DNA of 4,049 nt, taken from NCBI RefSeq assembly GCF_054482525.1, contig NZ_JBTHVG010000005.1; one strand, written 5' to 3'. The stretch comes from a plasmid. Both the position numbers and the translations under genes were made by a program. Below, piece after piece: positions 1-4,049 of this stretch (the stretch's first letter is position 1; the number at the start of each line of letters is the position of its first letter). Below the pieces are notes generated by a model. That model was not told where the DNA came from, searched no databases, and saw only the letters and a list, made by a program, of their open reading frames with translations.

Positions 1-126
1 AACAGGAAGGATGCGTCAGGATCGTTTTCAGCTCGCTGCATAGCTATGCATGAAAGCGAATGGTGATCACTTTGGGAGCTTACGGTGTTCATACCGTCTG
101 TTTTCGACAGTTTTCTCTCCGGGAAG

Positions 127-474
127 CTAATCTGCCATAAGCCTGGATAACAGGGCACGGTGATACTCCGTAATAGCGATCAGCACCTCCGCATACTCCC
201 TGTCCCCGACACGCTTGCCGTCGATAAAGAGTTTTTTCTGTAACGCCCCCAGTCTCATAACTTCTTTCAGTACCCGATCATCAGTCAGTGAGTTAACTTT
301 CTTACCGAGAGCTGCCGCCCGTAAAAAACCGGAAACGGTCTTGCCGCATTCAGCAGCCCTTTTTCTGATTTCCTGGTCTTCTTCTGCCGTCAGACGAACA
401 GGGCGACTGATAGCCCGCCTGCGCGTATTACTTCCACTTCGTTTTGTCATAAAACATGGCTCCGTATCTGACAT
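127..474 (-). CDS. mobC: MobC-family plasmid mobilisation (relaxosome accessory) protein
   Basis: 115-aa ORF whose core (RLTAEEDQEIRKRAAECGKTVSGFLRAAALGKK...) resembles the MobC/MbeC family of small relaxosome proteins. It reads away from the adjacent bom/oriT-like sequence. An alternative start at M9 (ATG at 450) is preceded by GGAG at about 9 nt spacing and may be the true start. Confidence 0.8.
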   Translation of the reverse strand: MSDTEPCFMTKRSGSNTRRRAISRPVRLTAEEDQEIRKRAAECGKTVSGFLRAAALGKKVNSLTDDRVLKEVMRLGALQKKLFIDGKRVGDREYAEVLIAITEYHRALLSRLMAD

Positions 475-560
475 GGGTGTCGGGGCAAAGCCCTGACCAG
501 GGCAATTGTAATAGCGTGCATGTATGCGCGGTATAACAATTGCACATCCTGTCCTGTCAG
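475..560. other. bom/oriT-like transfer origin region (ColE1 type), nick position not determined
   Basis: Begins GGGTGTCGGGGC, which matches my recollection of the pBR322/ColE1 bom region, followed by the hairpin GCCCTG-acc-CAGGGC (~489-502) and the imperfect inverted repeat GCAATTGTAATA...TATAACAATTGC (~502-543). Lies immediately upstream of mobC. By analogy to the ColE1 nic region the nick would fall near 531/532, but this is not verified. Confidence 0.55.
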
Positions 561-733
561 CAAGCTCGAATTACCGACAAAGGCACGGCAGTTTTTTGGC
601 AGTGACAGTGTTGTCTGACAGAAATGCCCGTCAAAAAGCCAAGCGGCAGAATAGCGGCAGCAAAACAGTCGAAAAGTGGTACGCGATATAATCACACAAC
701 GCAGATGACAGACAGAACGGAGAAAACGAAAAG

Positions 734-928
734 ATGAACAAGCAGCAGCAAGCCGTACTCAACATGGCGGGATTCATAAAAAGTCAGAGCCTGACGCTGC
801 TCGAAAAACTGGACGCACTCAATGCCGACGAACAGGCCGCCATGTGTGAGAAACTGCACGAACTCGCAGAAGAACTCCAGAACAGCATACAGACACGCTT
901 TGAAGCGGAAAATCTTACCGGGATATAA
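734..928 (+). CDS. rop: Rop/Rom (RNA one modulator) protein, copy-number control
   Basis: 64-aa ORF MNKQQQAVLNMAGFIKSQSLTLLEKLDALNADEQAAMCEKLHELAEELQ... closely parallels ColE1/pMB1 Rop (recalled as MTKQEKTALNMARFIRSQTLTLLEKLNELDADEQADICESLH...). A GGAG Shine-Dalgarno lies about 8-13 nt upstream of the ATG (acggagaaaacgaaaagATG). Confidence 0.9.
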   Translation: MNKQQQAVLNMAGFIKSQSLTLLEKLDALNADEQAAMCEKLHELAEELQNSIQTRFEAENLTGI

Positions 929-1544
929 CGCATCCGGACAGGATGCAGAACGGCATAGAGGAGCGTAAGGAGAAAATGTCACATAAGGCGCTCTTCCGCT
1001 TCCTCGCTCACTGACTCGCTACGCTCGGTCGTTCGACTGCGGCGAGCGGTGTCAGCTCACTCAAAGGCGGTAATACGGTTATCCACAGAATCGGGGGATA
1101 AAACCGGAAAGAACATGTGAGCAAAAGACAAAGACCCAGAAGAAGGGCGCGCGGGAGGCGTTTTTCCATAGGCTCCGCCCCCCTGACGAGCATCACAAAA
1201 ATCGACGCTCAAGTCAGAGGTGGCGAAACCCGACAGGACTTAAAGATACCAGGCGTTTCCCCCTGGAAGCTCCCTCGTGCGCTCTCCTGTTCCGACCCTG
1301 CCGCTTACCGGATACCTGTCCGCCTTTCTCCCTTCGGGAAGCGTGGCGCTTTCTCATAGCTCACGCTGTTGGTATCTCGGCCCGGTGTAGGTCGTTCGCT
1401 CCAAGCTGGACTGTATGCACGAACCCCCCGTTCAGTCCGACCGCTGCGCCTTATCCGGTAACTATCGACTTGAATCCAAACCGAGAAGACACGACTTATC
1501 GCCACTGGCAGCAGCCACTGGTAACCGAATTAGAGGAGTTAGCC

Positions 1545-1574
1545 TTGAAGTCATGCGCCTGTTAAGGCTAAACT
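1545..1574 (+). promoter_or_regulatory. RNA I promoter (-35 TTGAAG, -10-like TAAACT)
   Basis: TTGAAG at 1545-1550 and TAAACT at 1569-1574, placed as in the pMB1 RNA I promoter relative to the RNA I 5' end. Confidence 0.6.
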
Positions 1575-1580
1575 GAAAGA

Positions 1581-1685
1581 ACAAGTTTTGGTGACTGCGC
1601 TCCTCCAAGCCAGTTACCTCGGCTCAAAGAGTTGGTAGCTCTGAGAACCTTCGAAAAACCGCCCTGCAAGGCGGTTTTTTCGTTT
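1581..1685 (+). ncRNA. RNAI: RNA I antisense copy-number control RNA
   Basis: ACAAGTTTTGGTGACTGCGCTCCTCCAAGCCAGTTACCTCGGCTCAAAGAGTTGGTAGCTCTGAGAACC...GCGGTTTTTTCGTTT parallels ColE1-family RNA I (pMB1: ACAGTATTTGGTATCTGCGCTCTGCTGAAGCCAGTTACCTTCGG...). It ends in a GC hairpin plus T-run. Confidence 0.85.
1656..1685 (+). terminator. RNA I intrinsic terminator (hairpin plus T-run)
   Basis: aaaaaCCGCCctgcaaGGCGGttttttcgttt: GC-rich stem CCGCC/GGCGG followed by six T. Confidence 0.7.
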
Positions 1686-1695
1686 ACACAGCAAG

Positions 1696-1724
1696 AGATT
1701 ACGACGAGATAGAAAGGATCTCAA
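1696..1724 (-). promoter_or_regulatory. RNA II promoter (-35 TTGAGA, -10 TAATCT)
   Basis: Minus strand reads cTTGAGAtcctttctatctcgtcgTAATCTc with a 17-nt spacer, closely matching the pMB1 RNA II promoter. Confidence 0.7.
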
Positions 1725-1763
1725 GTTCTCATATCATAAAAACAAGCTGACACATCCACGATG

Positions 1764-1967
1764 TTATACCTTTTGAATCGCTACAGCTTTAAACCCTTTA
1801 TCTGTTTTTTCTAATTTAAACCTAACTAAAATACCTTTACATATATCGACATCATGCCCTAAAAACAAAAAATCATCATACCGAAAGAAAACATCACGTC
1901 CACGCTCACGCCTTATAAAGCCATACCCTTTAACATGGTCATAAAAATTAACAAATCCATTTTCCAT
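1764..1967 (-). CDS. Cold-shock-domain (CspA-like) small nucleic-acid-binding protein; candidate retron effector/accessory protein
   Basis: Core GFVNFYDHVKGYGFIRRERGRDVFFRYDDF aligns to the CspA fold (GxVKWFNxxKGFGFI...DVFVHF) with RNP1-like KGYGFI and RNP2-like VFFRY. The ATG at 1967 lies 4 nt after the RT stop (TGA 1972-1974) and is preceded by AGGTGA, indicating translational coupling. The longest ORF extends to an upstream ATG at 2021 (85 aa) overlapping the RT 3' end; the true start is uncertain. Confidence 0.8.
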   Translation of the reverse strand: MENGFVNFYDHVKGYGFIRRERGRDVFFRYDDFLFLGHDVDICKGILVRFKLEKTDKGFKAVAIQKV

Positions 1968-1971
1968 ATAA

Positions 1972-3111
1972 TCACCTATCTGGAAGTAATGCCACGAGCT
2001 TACGTCTATATAGTTTTGCAAGATTCTTATTAGTCCGCCCTACTATATCAAAATCATAGAGCATCCTATCTATTTTCCTAATCTGATCATCAGTTAAAGG
2101 CGGCGTAAACTTATTTAGATAGTGCTTAGCCATCAACTTTAATTTAGATATCTTGTAATCATCATAAACTGGCATTATCTCAGAAAGAATCGCCCTCAAT
2201 TCAACCGCCTGGACATGCCCAAGCCTCGACATTTGAGCAACCTTGCCAGAGCATCTATTCCATAAATCATGGTACTCTTTCGTATGACGTTCATAAGCAC
2301 CTTGTTTTTTACATATATAAACTAAGTACCTGATATAACGTCTATTTTCTTTTGTTAACTTAGGAACACCATGCTTTACCCACAACCCAGTGACACTAAG
2401 TTTAGAAGACGAATCTTTTGAGTGCTCTATCGTTGTCTTACTTTCATTTATTGAAAGTCTGTACTGATTCACCATTCCGTGAACGAGTTTTATTACTTTT
2501 GTTTTTTCCTCTGATGAAAGATCCTTATCAGAGGATATAGTAATATCATCTAAAAGCCTTGAATATGAAAGCCCCATAGACTTCAATCTATTATAGAGAT
2601 TATACTCACTATTAAAAAATAAAAGATTTGCAATATAACTAGAACAGCACCCACCCTGAGGGACCTTATTATTCAACGTCACAAGTTCCGTTAAGCATAA
2701 AGAAACATCAGGAGAAAAACGCATTAAATTTTTAAAAATAGAACAAACATCTTTTTTACTAATGCTGGGATAAAAATTGGTGATATCAAGACATATAACT
2801 GTTCTTTTCCTAGTATGAACAGCGGCATTAGATATATAATCGCGACCACTTAACGCCCCATGCAAATAATGAGGGTAATCAATTTTCTCAAAAATCTCTT
2901 TATTTATTTTTTTTTGAATTCCTTTCAAAGATCTCTTGGGTTCAAAAATTTGCCTTTCTTTTTTATTCTTCCCTGTTTCAACCTTAAACTGCTTGTACGA
3001 CATCGATACAGACTTGACTATCCAGTCCAATCTTTTTCTTTCTATGCCTAACATCGCAGATAAAGAATCCAAAGATGCAACAGGAGTTCCATTAAACCTG
3101 GGTTTATTCAT
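1972..3111 (-). CDS. Retron-type reverse transcriptase
   Basis: 379-aa ORF with RT motifs in order: NAxxH-like SNAAVH (res 95-99), motif A CLDITNFYPSI (catalytic D109), motif B VPQGGCCSSYIANLLF, motif C YSRLLDDITIS (D188, D189) and VTG (res 240-242). It aligns motif by motif with retron Ec86 RT as I recall it (IDLEDFFPSL / LPQGAPSSPKLANL / YTRYADDLTLS / RKVTGLVI). The ATG lies 7 nt after the a2 repeat. Confidence 0.9.
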   Translation of the reverse strand: MNKPRFNGTPVASLDSLSAMLGIERKRLDWIVKSVSMSYKQFKVETGKNKKERQIFEPKRSLKGIQKKINKEIFEKIDYPHYLHGALSGRDYISNAAVHTRKRTVICLDITNFYPSISKKDVCSIFKNLMRFSPDVSLCLTELVTLNNKVPQGGCCSSYIANLLFFNSEYNLYNRLKSMGLSYSRLLDDITISSDKDLSSEEKTKVIKLVHGMVNQYRLSINESKTTIEHSKDSSSKLSVTGLWVKHGVPKLTKENRRYIRYLVYICKKQGAYERHTKEYHDLWNRCSGKVAQMSRLGHVQAVELRAILSEIMPVYDDYKISKLKLMAKHYLNKFTPPLTDDQIRKIDRMLYDFDIVGRTNKNLAKLYRRKLVALLPDR

Positions 3112-3118
3112 GATGTTT

Positions 3119-3401
3119 GAGTTAAAAGTCGATTAGTTAAAAAGTTTCGATACGTAATCTATTACTTTAAACATAATCAAGCACATAGAAAACAAAAACT
3201 GTGTTTTTTTCAGTGCCTCCAGAGAGCCAACCTCTCTTTTTTTCTTCATCTGACCGTCTCCAGAACAAGATGAAGAGCTCTTGGTTACGTTAATGTTGAT
3301 GTTGATAATAAACATGATGCAACTCCTATTGGTTATGAAATTTTGCCAGACCAGTAGGAAAGCAAGGAAAAACTCTATTGGCTCTTTGGGACTTTTAACT
3401 C
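3119..3401 (-). ncRNA. Candidate retron msr/msd non-coding RNA bounded by a1/a2 inverted repeats
   Basis: Perfect 12-bp inverted repeat: plus-strand gagttaaaagtc at 3119-3130 and gacttttaactc at 3390-3401. On the minus strand this gives 5'-GAGTTAAAAGTC (a1) ... about 260 nt ... GACTTTTAACTC (a2), then 7 nt, then the RT ATG. Internal hairpins include CTTCATCT-n16-AGATGAAG, AGAGAG-gttgg-CTCTCT and AAAAAC-aca-GTTTTT. Exact msr/msd boundaries and the priming G are not determined. Confidence 0.6.
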
Positions 3402-3684
3402 ACATTGCCAGACAATCGTCGCTATTCTTTTAGTGCTGATACACGCTCAGGGGCGTTCTCACCATTAATTAGCGGCCAGGCCGGTCATGATCTCATGCGA
3501 GATCGCCTTAAAAACAAGGCATCGGTTTCCTTGCGCAACATACACGTAACCATTTGTTAAAGAGCGAGAGCCAGGCGTGGTTCGCCCGCTTCGCTGATTA
3601 TTATAAAGTTTTTTATCTTTCTGTCACCAACAAGAAAGCGCCTTATCCTGCCAGCGATAGGCTAAAAGGTATGCAGCATGAGAT

Positions 3685-3921
3685 TCAAATCAACTCAGCT
3701 ACAAAGGCCATAACAACAATCCCAACCTCAGCATCGGCACTCAGGATAATTTTTGAACTAGCATCTCTTAAATTCTGACCGTCAAAGGTTGCTACTTTTT
3801 TTAAAGAGGCATCCCTTAAAACCTTGCCATCAAAAGTCGCTATTTTTCTCGAAAAGGCATCTCTTAAGGTTTTACCGTCAAACCGAGCAACGGTTTTTAA
3901 GTCATTGTTTTTATTGAAATA
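3685..3921 (-). pseudogene. Open frame encoding 16-aa tandem protein repeats with a hydrophobic C-terminus; no canonical start codon, so a possible decayed gene or non-canonical initiation
   Basis: Minus-strand frame from the TAA at 3922-3924 to the TGA at 3685-3687 translates to YFNKNNDLKTVARFDGKTLRDAFSRKIATFDGKVLRDASLKKVATFDGQNLRDASSKIILSADAEVGIVVMAFVAELI*. Differences between repeat copies are largely synonymous third-position changes (GCT/GCG/GCA, GAC/GAT, GGT/GGC, AGA/AGG, AAA/AAG). No ATG, GTG or TTG precedes the repeats; the nearest ATG (3903-3905) is offset by 1 nt and gives M-T-stop. Confidence 0.3.
3761..3904. repeat. Three tandem, diverged 48-bp direct repeats
   Basis: Units at 3761-3808, 3809-3856 and 3857-3904 each begin GCATC(T/C)CTTAA and share an (A/G)CC(G/A)TCAAA block and a T-run; identity is roughly 65-75%. 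Confidence 0.85.
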
Positions 3922-3955
3922 TTAATTTCTCACCAATAGTAATTTAACCAATTGT

Positions 3956-3985
3956 ATTTACCATAATCCCTTAATTGTACGCACC
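3956..3985 (-). other. cer: cer-type XerC/XerD site-specific recombination core (plasmid multimer resolution site; accessory arm extends toward and past the window end)
   Basis: Minus strand reads GGTGCGTACAA-TTAAGGGA-TTATGGTAAAT, matching the ColE1 cer core (XerC arm, 8-bp central region, XerD arm) as I recall it. Accessory sequences would lie on the XerC side at 3986-4049 and beyond. Confidence 0.8.
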
Positions 3986-4049
3986 GCTGAAACGCGCTGA
4001 ACGCGATTCTGACGCAGACACCGCAAAAAGAGATGTTTTACCCCGGGAA

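What the first reader, a model, noticed from the sequence alone, without database searches (positions are those of the whole stretch)
3119..3401. 12-bp perfect inverted repeat brackets a structured non-coding region immediately upstream of the RT: candidate msr/msd with a1/a2
gagttaaaagtc (3119-3130) and its exact reverse complement (3390-3401) sit about 260 nt apart, with the downstream copy ending 7 nt before the RT start codon. This is the arrangement expected for retron a1/a2 repeats that pair the ncRNA ends. The interior contains several hairpins (CTTCATCT-n16-AGATGAAG, AGAGAG-n5-CTCTCT, AAAAAC-aca-GTTTTT), a short direct repeat (ATCAAC x2 then ATTAAC) and a duplicated CCAATAG(A/G)G motif. 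The spacing is at the long end for retron ncRNAs, so the msd may be large or the true a1 may lie closer in.
Basis: seen in the sequence. Interest (0 to 1): 0.7.

Follow-up and report, generated by a model that had tools for sequence, protein, structure and literature searches.

The report
Retron Se72 leader RNA closing helix
The inverted repeat is a real, conserved RNA helix in the leader of the already known plasmid retron Se72 (Retron-Sen1), but it encloses a conserved 60-residue protein gene rather than a non-coding msr/msd, and the likely DNA template lies just outside it.

Summary
**Observation:** confirmed. The repeat is perfect over 13 bp (3118-3130 / 3390-3402). A repeat of at least 12 bp arose in 0.5% of shuffles. 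It is kept at the same place in 18 type V retron loci (RT identity 100-42%), with compensatory changes.

**Context:** the window is a 4.05-kb ColE1 plasmid about 98.6% identical to known plasmids carrying retron Se72/Sen1 (type V: RT plus cold-shock-domain protein).

**Interpretation:** partly right. The helix (X/X') probably acts as an a1/a2-like priming duplex. In the sister retron Ec48, the sequenced RT-DNA starts inside the equivalent arm.

Three points need correcting:
- The interior is not non-coding. It holds a conserved 60-aa ORF (3315-3133) with a Shine-Dalgarno sequence and indels only in multiples of three.
- The msd-like variable hairpin (about 3474-3421) lies 5' of the repeat, outside it.
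- A second covarying long-range stem (3552-3544 / 3290-3282, the a1/a2 used in the retron census) crosses X/X'. The RNA of about 475 nt is therefore a pseudoknot or a switch.

The anatomy matches the "hybrid RNA" recently described for type VI retrons. The system is already known. The type V hybrid-RNA reading is the new part.

The parts
3600..3627 (-). Promoter of the retron leader: -35 GTGACA (3627-3622), -10 TATAAT (3605-3600). Predicted transcription start near 3593.
   Evidence: Best sigma-70 match in 1700-4049, 11 of 12 positions. The TATAAT is conserved in homologues. The start site is inferred, not mapped.
3573..3587 (-). H0: 5' hairpin GGGCG-AACCA-CGCCU, followed by the conserved GCUCUUUAA leader.
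   Evidence: 3 of 5 pairs covary, 98.6% paired. The same hairpin-plus-leader motif occurs in type VI loci L144 and L145.
3544..3570 (-). 5' strands of the long-range stem P1: P1a CUCUC 3570-3566, P1b GCUCUU 3565-3560, a1 UGGUUACGU 3552-3544.
   Evidence: RNAalifold picks these helices unprompted. Double changes occur in 2 of 5, 1 of 6 and 5 of 7 pairs. The a1/a2 ends equal the census Sen1 ncRNA ends.
3489..3533 (-). First-arm base and msr-like hairpins: P2 5' strand CAAGGAA 3533-3527, P3 GCCU/AGGC 3520-3505, P4 GAUCUC/GAGAUC 3504-3489.
   Evidence: P2 is 100% paired with 3 of 7 pairs covarying. P3 has 2 of 4 covarying. P4 is invariant.
3421..3474 (-). Variable hairpin, the msd-like element and probable reverse-transcription template.
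   Evidence: The segment between GACCGG and UUGUCUGGCA is 64-68 nt in 17 of 18 loci, with unrelated sequences that each fold as a hairpin. The census 'bacterial donor location 83;129' maps to 3470-3423. The template role is inferred.
3403..3420 (-). Conserved leader GACGAUUGUCUGGCAAUG between the hairpin and X, containing direct repeat 1 (GUCUGGCAA, 3413-3405).
   Evidence: Nearly invariant in 14 loci. The repeat pair is kept down to 42% RT identity. It resembles the Ec48 leader GCCGACGACAUUACGUAC, which is reverse transcribed.
3390..3402 (-).
   Evidence: Perfect 13-bp complement of 3130-3118. 6 of 13 pairs have double changes and 95.5% of cells are paired. Further compensatory variants occur in distant loci.
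3378..3385 (-). Y, 5' strand AGAGCCAA, which pairs with 3230-3223.
   Evidence: 4 of 8 pairs have double changes and 95.5% of cells are paired.
3363..3369 (-). P2 3' strand UUCCUUG, which closes the first arm.
3299..3358 (-). Second arm: a hairpin CCUACUGGU/ACCAAUAGG (3358-3325) that pairs the small ORF's Shine-Dalgarno AGGAG (3327-3323) and shows direct repeat 2 (GUCUGGCAA, 3351-3343) in its loop, then the AUG hairpin AUGUU/AACAU (3315-3299).
   Evidence: The SD is paired in 16-17 of 18 loci, with different stem sequences per clade. The AUG hairpin is 94% paired. The alignment-based count for the SD hairpin is weaker at 77%.
3133..3315 (-). Conserved small ORF (60 aa, MFIINININVTKSSSSCSGDGQMKKKREVGSLEALKKTQFLFSMCLIMFKVIDYVSKLFN), including its stop codon.
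   Evidence: Present in all 18 type V loci. 11 of 11 indel events are multiples of 3, against 11 of 42 upstream. Codon-position differences are 82/65/125. The family has 43 clusters, all 'hypothetical'. AF2 predicts a disordered N-terminal half and a helix at 31-59. Translation is not shown.
3277..3290 (-). a2 ACGUAACCA (3290-3282) and P1b 3' strand AAGAGC (3282-3277), lying inside codons N-V-T-K-S of the small ORF.
   Evidence: The coding and pairing overlap can be read directly from the sequence.
3243..3276 (-). Third-arm hairpin UCUUCAUCU/AGAUGAAGA with the conserved loop UCUGGAGAC (codons S-G-D).
   Evidence: 9 of 9 pairs have double changes and 83% of cells are paired.
3223..3236 (-). P1a 3' strand GAGAG (3236-3232) and Y' UUGGCUCU (3230-3223), inside codons R-E-V-G-S-L.
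3118..3130 (-).
   Evidence: It holds the same position as the Ec48 arm GACCGUACGUAA, 22 nt before that RT's AUG.
1972..3111 (-). Retron reverse transcriptase, type V (379 aa).
   Evidence: PADLOC RT_V at 2.6e-127. 99-100% identical to RTs of many small plasmids.
1764..1967 (-). Cold-shock-domain protein, annotated as 'retron Se72 family effector'.
   Evidence: NF038236 scores 84.2 bits, above its cut-off of 82. PADLOC CSD_V at 7.4e-25. The start at 1967 follows the annotation in relatives.

Best explanation
The interval is the 3' two-thirds of a structured leader RNA of about 475 nt. The leader runs from about 3593 to about 3115 on the minus strand and belongs to the plasmid-borne type V retron Se72 (Retron-Sen1).

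**The helix.** The 13-bp inverted repeat (X 3402-3390, X' 3130-3118), together with an adjacent 8-bp helix (Y 3385-3378, Y' 3230-3223), folds the 3' end of the leader back onto its first arm. It lands immediately 3' of the msd-like variable hairpin. X' sits between the stop codon of a small ORF and the RT start codon.

**What X/X' does (inferred).** It is the priming duplex, the functional counterpart of a1/a2. Reverse transcription starts at or inside X and copies the conserved leader and the variable hairpin 5' of it. That gives a product of about 72 nt within roughly 3390-3474. Priming does not use a canonical branching G.

**What X/X' encloses (shown).** The enclosed stretch is not plain non-coding RNA. 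It carries a conserved 60-aa ORF whose ribosome-binding site and AUG are locked in two hairpins. The anatomy is the same as the 'hybrid RNA' of type VI retrons.

**The crossing stem (shown).** A second covarying set of long-range helices (P1a, P1b, a1/a2 at 3552-3544 / 3290-3282, and P2) crosses X/Y. The RNA therefore forms a pseudoknot or switches between two folds.

**Possible coupling (inferred).** The crossing could link reverse transcription, translation of the small protein, and translation of the RT, which has no Shine-Dalgarno sequence.

**Shown versus inferred.** The helices, their covariation, the ORF's coding constraint and the homology of the layout are shown. The priming role, the product coordinates, translation of the ORF and any switching are inferred.
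For: **Identity.** RT_V 2.6e-127, CSD_V, and NF038236 above its cut-off. At least 16 near-identical plasmids are annotated 'retron Se72 family effector'.

**Helix X/X'.**
- Perfect over 13 bp. The chance of at least 12 bp is 0.005.
- 6 of 13 pairs have double changes and 95.5% of cells are paired. The whole structure is 94.3% paired, against 48.7% or less in slid controls.
- Distant loci carry UAAGUUGAGAGUC/GACUCUAGACUUA, AAAAGAGAAGUC/GACUUCUCUUUU and GAAGUUAGGUAUC/GAUACUUAGCUUC.
- G-U outnumbers A-C 8 to 2 in X/Y.

**Priming role.**
- The Ec48 locus has the same X-Y...Y'-X' layout, with X' 22 nt before the RT AUG.
- Its template-proximal arm pairs at -30.7 kcal/mol downstream against -15.5 upstream.
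- The census RT-DNA 5'-GTACGTAATGTCG starts inside X.
- Simon et al. [quoted passage not shown]

**msd outside the bracket.** The variable segment keeps a constant 64-68 nt. The census bacterial donor site 83;129 maps to 3470-3423. The Haliea ncRNA bounded by X/X'-type ends made no RT-DNA.

**ORF.**

**Parallel with type VI hyRNA.** Zhang et al. 2025 describe an RNA of about 470 nt with three arms. The RBS and AUG sit in the second arm, the 3' end anneals to the first arm through inverted repeats, and direct repeats lie in the loops. Type VI loci share the 5' hairpin-plus-leader motif and a repeat bracketing their small ORF.

**Energetics.** The two crossing helix sets are nearly isoenergetic when each is enforced alone (-136.6 against -133.2; unconstrained -137.6).
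Against: - No transcript or RT-DNA ends were mapped here. The two primary Se72 papers are not held, so the mapped 72-nt product could not be compared with the prediction.
- The census a1/a2 stem covaries at least as well (5 of 7 pairs). It is followed by a G in the window (3543), and the distance from a2 to P2 is also exactly 72 nt (3291-3362).
- A human-cell editing construct with its donor at 203;220 (inside 3291-3362) gave 0.198% precise edits, 1.7x Eco1. That hints this region may be reverse transcribed.
- The Ec48 analogy rests on layout and short leader similarity, not on a statistical alignment.
- Some of the ORF's 'protein' conservation (NVTK, SGD, EVGS) coincides with RNA helices and loops. 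Part of the amino-acid conservation may therefore be a by-product of RNA constraint.
- The codon-position skew is modest, and the pairs counted are not independent.
Confidence: 0.6

Rival explanations
1. Canonical-retron model. The real a1/a2 is the census pair (3552-3544 / 3290-3282). Priming is from the G just 3' of a1 (3543). The template is 3291-3362, which contains the small ORF's RBS and first codons. X/X' is only a scaffold or regulatory helix, for example closing the ORF domain, occluding the RT start, or marking a processing site.
For: The a1/a2 stem has 5 of 7 pairs with double changes, and RNAalifold chooses it unprompted. The census authors used it for Sen1. The distance from a2 to P2 is exactly 72 nt. 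A donor placed at 203;220 in human cells gave 0.198% precise editing, 1.7x Eco1.
Against: The base after a1 is not a conserved G: A, U or C appear in several loci. 3291-3362 is among the most conserved stretches, which is unlike an msd. The sequenced Ec48 RT-DNA starts in the X-equivalent arm, and Ec48 has no upstream partner. The literature summary places the msd outside 'the ORF flanked by repeats' and reports no branching G. The census bacterial donor site is in the variable hairpin.
Confidence: 0.25
2. X/X' and the crossing P1/a1-a2 stem are mutually exclusive conformers of a riboregulator. The main job is translational control of the small protein and/or the RT. Priming happens elsewhere, for example from a processed 3'-OH that folds back locally.
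For: The two helix sets cross and are nearly isoenergetic. The SD and AUG of the small ORF are sequestered. The RT lacks an SD, and X' lies 6 nt before its AUG. Duplicate AAGAGC and GCUCU motifs allow alternative pairings. In type VI retrons, RNA structure represses translation of the small protein.
Against: The two sets share no nucleotides, so they can coexist as a pseudoknot. Nothing in the sequence forces exclusivity. The Ec48 parallel links X to the start of reverse transcription.
Confidence: 0.1
3. The repeat acts at the DNA level, as a protein operator, recombination site or mobile-element ends, or is a chance match in AT-rich DNA.
For: Inverted repeats in DNA also co-evolve. The region is AT-rich.
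Against: The chance probability is 0.005 or less. The repeat is kept in unrelated plasmid and chromosomal backgrounds, always between the small ORF and the RT. G-U pairs are tolerated on the transcribed strand: 8 against 2 A-C, plus further wobbles in L006 and L142. It brackets only the small ORF, not a mobile unit.
Confidence: 0.03

Closest known systems
Retron-Sen1 (Se72), the type V retron on a 4,053-bp Salmonella Enteritidis plasmid (Rychlik et al. 2001; Pilousova & Rychlik 2011; seen here only through PMC6868368)
   Same: It is essentially the same element. The backbone is a ColE1-type plasmid of about 4.05 kb, with an RT, a cold-shock-domain gene and an upstream ORF flanked by repeats. 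The census Sen1 ncRNA matches 3552-3282 apart from two 1-nt indels. The known function is defence against lambda, triggered by Gam and RecBCD loss.
   Different: There is nothing structural. The window differs by about 1.4% from database plasmids. This work adds covariation support for the helices, the crossing topology, and the family-wide conservation and coding constraint of the small ORF.
Type VI retron hybrid RNA (Retron-Vpa2, Zhang et al. 2025 bioRxiv 10.1101/2025.10.22.683967; Retron-Sen3, Garcia-Rodriguez et al. 2026 bioRxiv 10.64898/2026.04.27.721009)
   Same: Both are structured RNAs of about 470 nt containing an msr-msd arm plus a small ORF. The RBS and AUG sit in stem-loops. The 3' end anneals back to the first arm through inverted repeats. 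Direct repeats lie in the loops, a conserved stem-loop lies upstream of the 5' repeat, and RNA covariation runs inside the coding sequence.
   Different: Type V has no HTH gene and carries a cold-shock-domain gene after the RT. The small proteins show no sequence similarity (hhalign probability about 0.1%). Se72 makes abundant DNA constitutively according to the literature, whereas Vpa2 does not. No held paper describes a hybrid RNA for type V.
Retron-Eco6 (Ec48), type IV
   Same: It is in the same RT clade. It has the same X-Y...Y'-X' fold-back, with X' about 20 nt before the RT AUG. It has a similar GCGACGA-type leader between the msd hairpin and X. It is also a RecBCD guard.
   Different: The bracket is only 75 nt and contains no ORF. 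X' contains an internal G (GACC-G-UACGUAA) that could serve as a branching G, whereas the Se72 X' has none. The effector is a two-TM membrane protein.
Canonical retron a1/a2 (for example Retron-Eco1/Ec86)
   Same: An inverted repeat brings a primer-side strand next to the 3' end of the template.
   Different: In the canonical layout, a1 is at the 5' end, is followed by the branching G, and the repeat encloses msr plus msd. Here the template-side arm (X) comes first, the primer-side arm (X') is at the 3' end, the msd lies outside the bracket, and no G follows X'.

Membership tests
Retron (general) | Retron-clade reverse transcriptase | tested here: met
   PADLOC RT_V at 2.6e-127 over residues 1-373. 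The next best matches are RT_VI and RT_IV.
Retron (general) | Adjacent structured ncRNA with a long-range inverted repeat, conserved among relatives | tested here: met
   The structure is 94.3% paired, against 48.7% or less in slid controls. 29 pairs have double changes. No Rfam family matches.
Retron (general) | Production of RT-DNA (msDNA) from the ncRNA | not testable with these tools
   Reported for Se72 in the literature, as summarised in PMC6868368. Spacer-seq coverage of the Sen1 msd is reported in Zhang et al. 2025.
Type V retron (Mestre et al. 2020) / Retron-Sen1 (Se72) | Clade-3 RT with a small cold-shock-domain protein encoded next to it | tested here: met
   The CSD gene lies 4 nt after the RT stop. 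NF038236 'retron Se72 family effector' scores 84.2, above its cut-off of 82. PADLOC CSD_V at 7.4e-25. The type V definition is in PMC7736814.
Type V retron (Mestre et al. 2020) / Retron-Sen1 (Se72) | Sequence identity with the described element | tested here: met
   The census Sen1 ncRNA aligns to 3552-3282 with two 1-nt indels. The whole window is 98-99% identical to plasmids carrying the annotated system.
Canonical a1/a2 bracket of msr-msd | The inverted repeat encloses both msr and msd | tested here: not met
   The msd-like variable hairpin (3474-3421) lies 5' of the 5' arm. The enclosed 259 nt are mostly a coding ORF. A Haliea construct bounded by the equivalent repeat gave no RT-DNA.
Canonical a1/a2 bracket of msr-msd | A conserved branching G immediately 3' of the primer-side arm | tested here: not met
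   X' is followed by AACAUC in the window and by varied G-free sequences in homologues. X' has no internal G. The literature also notes no apparent priming G.
Canonical a1/a2 bracket of msr-msd | The repeat is conserved with compensatory changes at the equivalent position | tested here: met
Canonical a1/a2 bracket of msr-msd | Reverse transcription starts at the template-side arm | tested here: inconclusive
   This holds for the homologous arm of Ec48, using the census RT-DNA sequence. It was not measured for Se72.
Type VI-like hybrid RNA (hyRNA) | A small ORF embedded in the same structured RNA as the msr-msd, with its RBS and AUG in stem-loops | tested here: met
   The ORF 3315-3133 lies between X and X'. 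The SD and AUG are paired in 16-17 of 18 loci. A contiguous transcript is inferred only from the single strong promoter.
Type VI-like hybrid RNA (hyRNA) | The 3' end anneals to the first arm through inverted repeats, with direct repeats in the loops of arms 1 and 2 | tested here: met
   X/X' and Y/Y'. GUCUGGCAA occurs at 3413-3405 and 3351-3343 and is conserved down to 42% RT identity.
Type VI-like hybrid RNA (hyRNA) | [quoted passage not shown] | tested here: not met
   No HTH gene lies between the small ORF and the RT in any type V locus. A CSD gene follows the RT instead.
Type VI-like hybrid RNA (hyRNA) | The small protein is homologous to type VI SPs and is the toxic effector | tested here: not met
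   There is no similarity to the SPs of L144 and L145 and no PADLOC hit. Toxicity cannot be tested here.

The most novel reading that the evidence does not exclude
Type V retrons, including the long-studied Se72, may be 'hybrid-RNA' retrons like type VI. Under this reading, the conserved and unannotated protein of about 60 aa encoded inside the leader has a basic middle and a long hydrophobic C-terminal helix, and it is a toxic effector or co-effector. The cold-shock-domain protein would be a nucleic-acid-binding regulator rather than the toxin. The X/X' fold-back, which crosses the P1/a1-a2 stem, would couple self-primed reverse transcription to translation of the small protein and of the RT. 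The fold-back bracket would then be ancestral to retron clade 3: empty in type IV, and ORF-bearing in types V and VI.
Probability: 0.3. Interest if true: 0.7.

Novelty: already known. Interest (0 to 1): 0.38.

Why it matters
As reported, the finding rediscovers retron Se72/Sen1. This is a characterised anti-phage system that guards RecBCD. The repeats flanking its upstream ORF were already noted in 2011, as relayed by Simon et al. 2019.

The follow-up has some value for specialists:
- **Inconsistent ncRNA boundaries.** The published working boundaries for type V retrons disagree. The census used a1/a2-type ends for Sen1 and X/X'-type ends for Haliea. Both helices are real and cross each other, which may explain why minimal RT-plus-ncRNA constructs of this clade perform poorly.
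- **An overlooked gene.** A conserved, unannotated small protein gene sits inside the leader of every type V locus examined. Its anatomy mirrors the type VI hybrid RNA. That raises the question of which protein is really the effector in Se72.
- **Practical consequences.** Correct boundaries and the correct template position matter for engineering these retrons as DNA-writing tools.

Tried and rejected
- **Rfam.** A search at E up to 10 found only the plasmid's RNAI and no retron family.
- **Primary papers.** PMC99502 and PMC11114809 are not held. The mapped 72-nt product could not be read, and a search for 'sdsDNA' or 'msDNA-Se72' found nothing useful.
- **Genome scan.** The motif GGCGATCTC..CATGAGATCATGACCGG found one contig, a near-identical plasmid.
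- **Metagenome scan.** The direct-repeat pair gave 120 hits, but only 3 were real type V loci and the rest were chance.
- **Strand test.** G-U against A-C was only mildly informative for X/Y (8 to 2) and uninformative for the nested helices (16 to 14).
- **Small-protein annotation.** PADLOC gave nothing and a profile search returned only 'hypothetical protein'. There was no similarity to two type VI small proteins. The AF2 model is a single helix with a disordered N-terminal half, so no fold search was run.
- **Interior hairpins rejected as conserved features.** AAAAAC/GTTTTT is 33% paired. The local AGAGAG/CTCTCT hairpin is 74% paired and is outcompeted by P1a and Y.
- **Local hairpin CAAGG...CCTTG.** Rejected in favour of the long-range P2 CAAGGAA/UUCCUUG helix plus the GCCU/AGGC hairpin, because the local version breaks in the Hafnia-type loci.
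- **Canonical upstream a1 in Ec48.** None was found.
Full report
**1. What the window is.**
- The window carries a ColE1 RNAI (1583-1683, 94.6 bits), a Rop gene (734-928) and a MobA gene (127-474, minus strand).
- On the minus strand it has an RT (3111-1972) followed by a cold-shock-domain (CSD) gene (1967-1764).
- PADLOC calls these RT_V (2.6e-127) and CSD_V. NCBIfam calls the second 'retron Se72 family effector', above its curated cut-off.
- At least 16 plasmids of about 4.05 kb from E. coli, Salmonella and Shigella match the whole window at 98-99%.
- This is therefore Retron-Sen1 (Se72), the type V retron first found on a 4,053-bp Salmonella Enteritidis plasmid (PMC6868368; PMC7736814).
- It defends against lambda and is triggered by Gam or loss of RecB (10.1101/2022.08.27.505566).

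**2. The observation.**
- Perfect repeats of at least 12 bp arose in 0.5% of 2000 dinucleotide shuffles of 3050-3500, and of at least 13 bp in 0.15%.
- The minus-strand RNA 3410-3112 folds with the arms paired and z = -4.2.
- The listed interior motifs exist, but their conservation differs widely (section 5).

**3. Homologous loci.**
- I collected 18 type V loci with RT identities from 100% to 42%. They came from plasmids, metagenomic and genomic contigs and a motif scan.
- The adjacent helix Y/Y' (3385-3378 / 3230-3223) has double changes in 4 of 8 pairs.
- The whole tested structure is 94.3% paired, against 48.7% or less when partners are slid, and no shuffle reached the observed values.
- The five most distant loci keep a complementary pair at the same two positions with different sequences.
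It was tested and the repeat survives.

**4. A second, crossing stem.**
- The retron census (Khan et al., PMC10849725, supplement) lists a Sen1 ncRNA that maps to 3552-3282, with ends UGGUUACGU...ACGUAACCA.
- RNAalifold picks this stem unprompted and extends it with GCUCUU/AAGAGC and CUCUC/GAGAG. It also finds CAAGGAA/UUCCUUG closing a first arm.
- These helices covary: a1/a2 in 5 of 7 pairs, P2 in 3 of 7 and P1a in 2 of 5.
- In transcript order the elements run a1, X, a2, X'. The two sets therefore cross.
- They share no nucleotides and are nearly isoenergetic when each is enforced alone: -136.6 against -133.2, with the unconstrained fold at -137.6 kcal/mol.
- The RNA is therefore either pseudoknotted or bistable. 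Sequence alone cannot decide which.

**5. The interior is largely coding.**
- *Position.* Every locus has a small ORF ending 18-43 nt before the RT AUG. In the window it is 3315-3133 and encodes 60 aa.
- *Start signals.* It has an AGGAG 7 nt before the AUG.
- *Indels.* All 11 distinct indel events in the ORF columns are multiples of three, against 11 of 42 in the upstream columns.
- *Substitutions.* Differences by codon position are 82/65/125.
- *Family.* A profile search finds 43 clusters, all 'hypothetical protein', with no Pfam domain.
- *Structure.* AF2 predicts a disordered N-terminal half and one helix at residues 31-59.
- *Dual use.* RNA helices run through the coding sequence. a2 lies in codons N-V-T-K, Y' lies in E-V-G-S-L, and the conserved S-G-D is the loop of a hairpin.
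- *Interior hairpins.* That hairpin, CUUCAUCU/AGAUGAAG, has double changes in 9 of 9 pairs.
- *Sequestration.* The ORF's SD and AUG sit in two hairpins in 16-17 of 18 loci.

**6. Where the template is.**
- The only part that behaves like an msd lies between GACCGG and UUGUCUGGCA. It is 64-68 nt in 17 of 18 loci, its sequences are unrelated, and each folds as a hairpin. In the window this is about 3474-3421, which is 5' of X.
- The census 'bacterial donor location 83;129' for Sen1 maps to 3470-3423.
- For the other type V retron in the census (Haliea), the ncRNA was bounded by the X/X' equivalent and gave no RT-DNA.
- The type IV sister Retron-Eco6/Ec48 has a 12-bp perfect repeat, UUACGUACGGUC / GACCGUACGUAA. 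Its 3' arm is 22 nt before the RT AUG, and it also has a Y-like helix.
- The Ec48 template-side arm has no upstream partner (-30.7 kcal/mol downstream against -15.5 upstream). Its sequenced RT-DNA (5'-GTACGTAATGTCG...) starts inside the 5' arm.
- By homology, X/X' is the priming duplex of this clade, and the product copies the RNA 5' of X.
- From the base after X (3403) to the 5' base of the hairpin (3474) is 72 nt, the published size of the Se72 product. However, a2 to P2 (3291-3362) is also 72 nt, so the number does not discriminate between the models.
- The absence of any G after or inside X' fits the published statement that Se72 lacks an apparent priming guanosine and a 2'-5' branch. The title of the 2011 paper ('self-priming initiation') fits as well.
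- The priming model remains an inference.

**7. Comparison with known systems.**
- Zhang et al. 2025 describe the type VI 'hybrid RNA'. It is about 470 nt with three arms: msr-msd, then RBS plus AUG in stem-loops, then the rest of the small ORF. Its 3' end anneals to the first arm through inverted repeats, and direct repeats lie in the loops of arms 1 and 2.
- The window matches point for point. From the strong promoter at 3627-3600 (11 of 12) to X' is about 475 nt. GUCUGGCAA occurs at 3413-3405 and 3351-3343, and this repeat pair persists down to 42% RT identity.
- Type VI loci also share the 5' hairpin (GGCGAAC loop) and the UUCUUUAAAA leader.
- The differences are real. Type V has no HTH gene, has a CSD gene instead, and its small protein is unrelated in sequence.
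- No held paper extends the hybrid-RNA idea to type V.
- Simon et al. 2019 relay that the ORF 'flanked by repeat regions' was already noted for Se72.

**8. Verdict.**
This is a retron leader, and the repeat is a real and probably priming-related RNA helix.
- It is partly wrong. The interior is not non-coding, the repeat does not bracket the msd, and it is not the only long-range stem.
- The element itself is already known.
- The part that may be new is the family-wide evidence for a pseudoknotted, ORF-bearing leader in type V retrons, and what that implies for which protein is the effector.

Noticed in passing
window 3685-3951 (minus strand); tandem repeat 3761-3882: An ORF encodes three copies of K(I/V)ATFDGKxLRDA, generated by a 48-bp tandem repeat (2.5 copies). 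It is annotated 'hypothetical protein' in the near-identical plasmid NZ_CP103484. In the window it carries an in-frame TAA where the relative has GAA.
   Followed up: partly
window 3412, 3350, 3264, 3223 (minus-strand starts): UCUGG occurs four times on the transcript. Three copies sit in hairpin loops: the two GUCUGGCAA direct repeats, and the arm-3 loop UCUGGAGAC that also encodes the invariant S-G-D. This may be a repeated protein-binding motif.
   Followed up: partly
window 3565-3560 versus 3386-3381 and 3282-3277: AAGAGC occurs twice, so the 5' strand GCUCUU has two possible partners. GCUCU also occurs four times. This allows alternative pairings.
   Followed up: no
window 3112-3135: The RT has no Shine-Dalgarno sequence. 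The small-ORF stop codon lies 21 nt upstream of the RT AUG (18-43 nt in homologues), with X' in between. A ribosome terminating on the small ORF would melt X/X', so translational coupling is possible.
   Followed up: no
census supplement (PMC10849725), terminals 544 and 553: The two type V ncRNAs in the retron census were given different kinds of ends: a1/a2-type for Sen1 and X/X'-type for Haliea. Sen1 also has two different donor sites recorded (203;220 and 83;129).
   Followed up: yes
L146 1-1523 (E. coli ATCC 43896, Ec48 locus): A second gene annotated 'RNA-directed DNA polymerase' lies divergently just upstream of the Ec48 ncRNA.
   Followed up: no
L143 949-1158 (Vibrio cholerae type V locus): A small ORF (69 aa) sits at the usual place between X and X' but lacks the NxNxN and SGD motifs of the family. 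The X/X' helix is intact.
   Followed up: partly
window 1-1700: The retron rides on a minimal mobilisable ColE1 backbone (MobA, Rop, RNAI/oriV). Relatives at 60-85% RT identity sit on other small Col-type plasmids in Klebsiella, Serratia, Hafnia, Pectobacterium and Edwardsiella. This retron lineage is largely plasmid-borne.
   Followed up: partly
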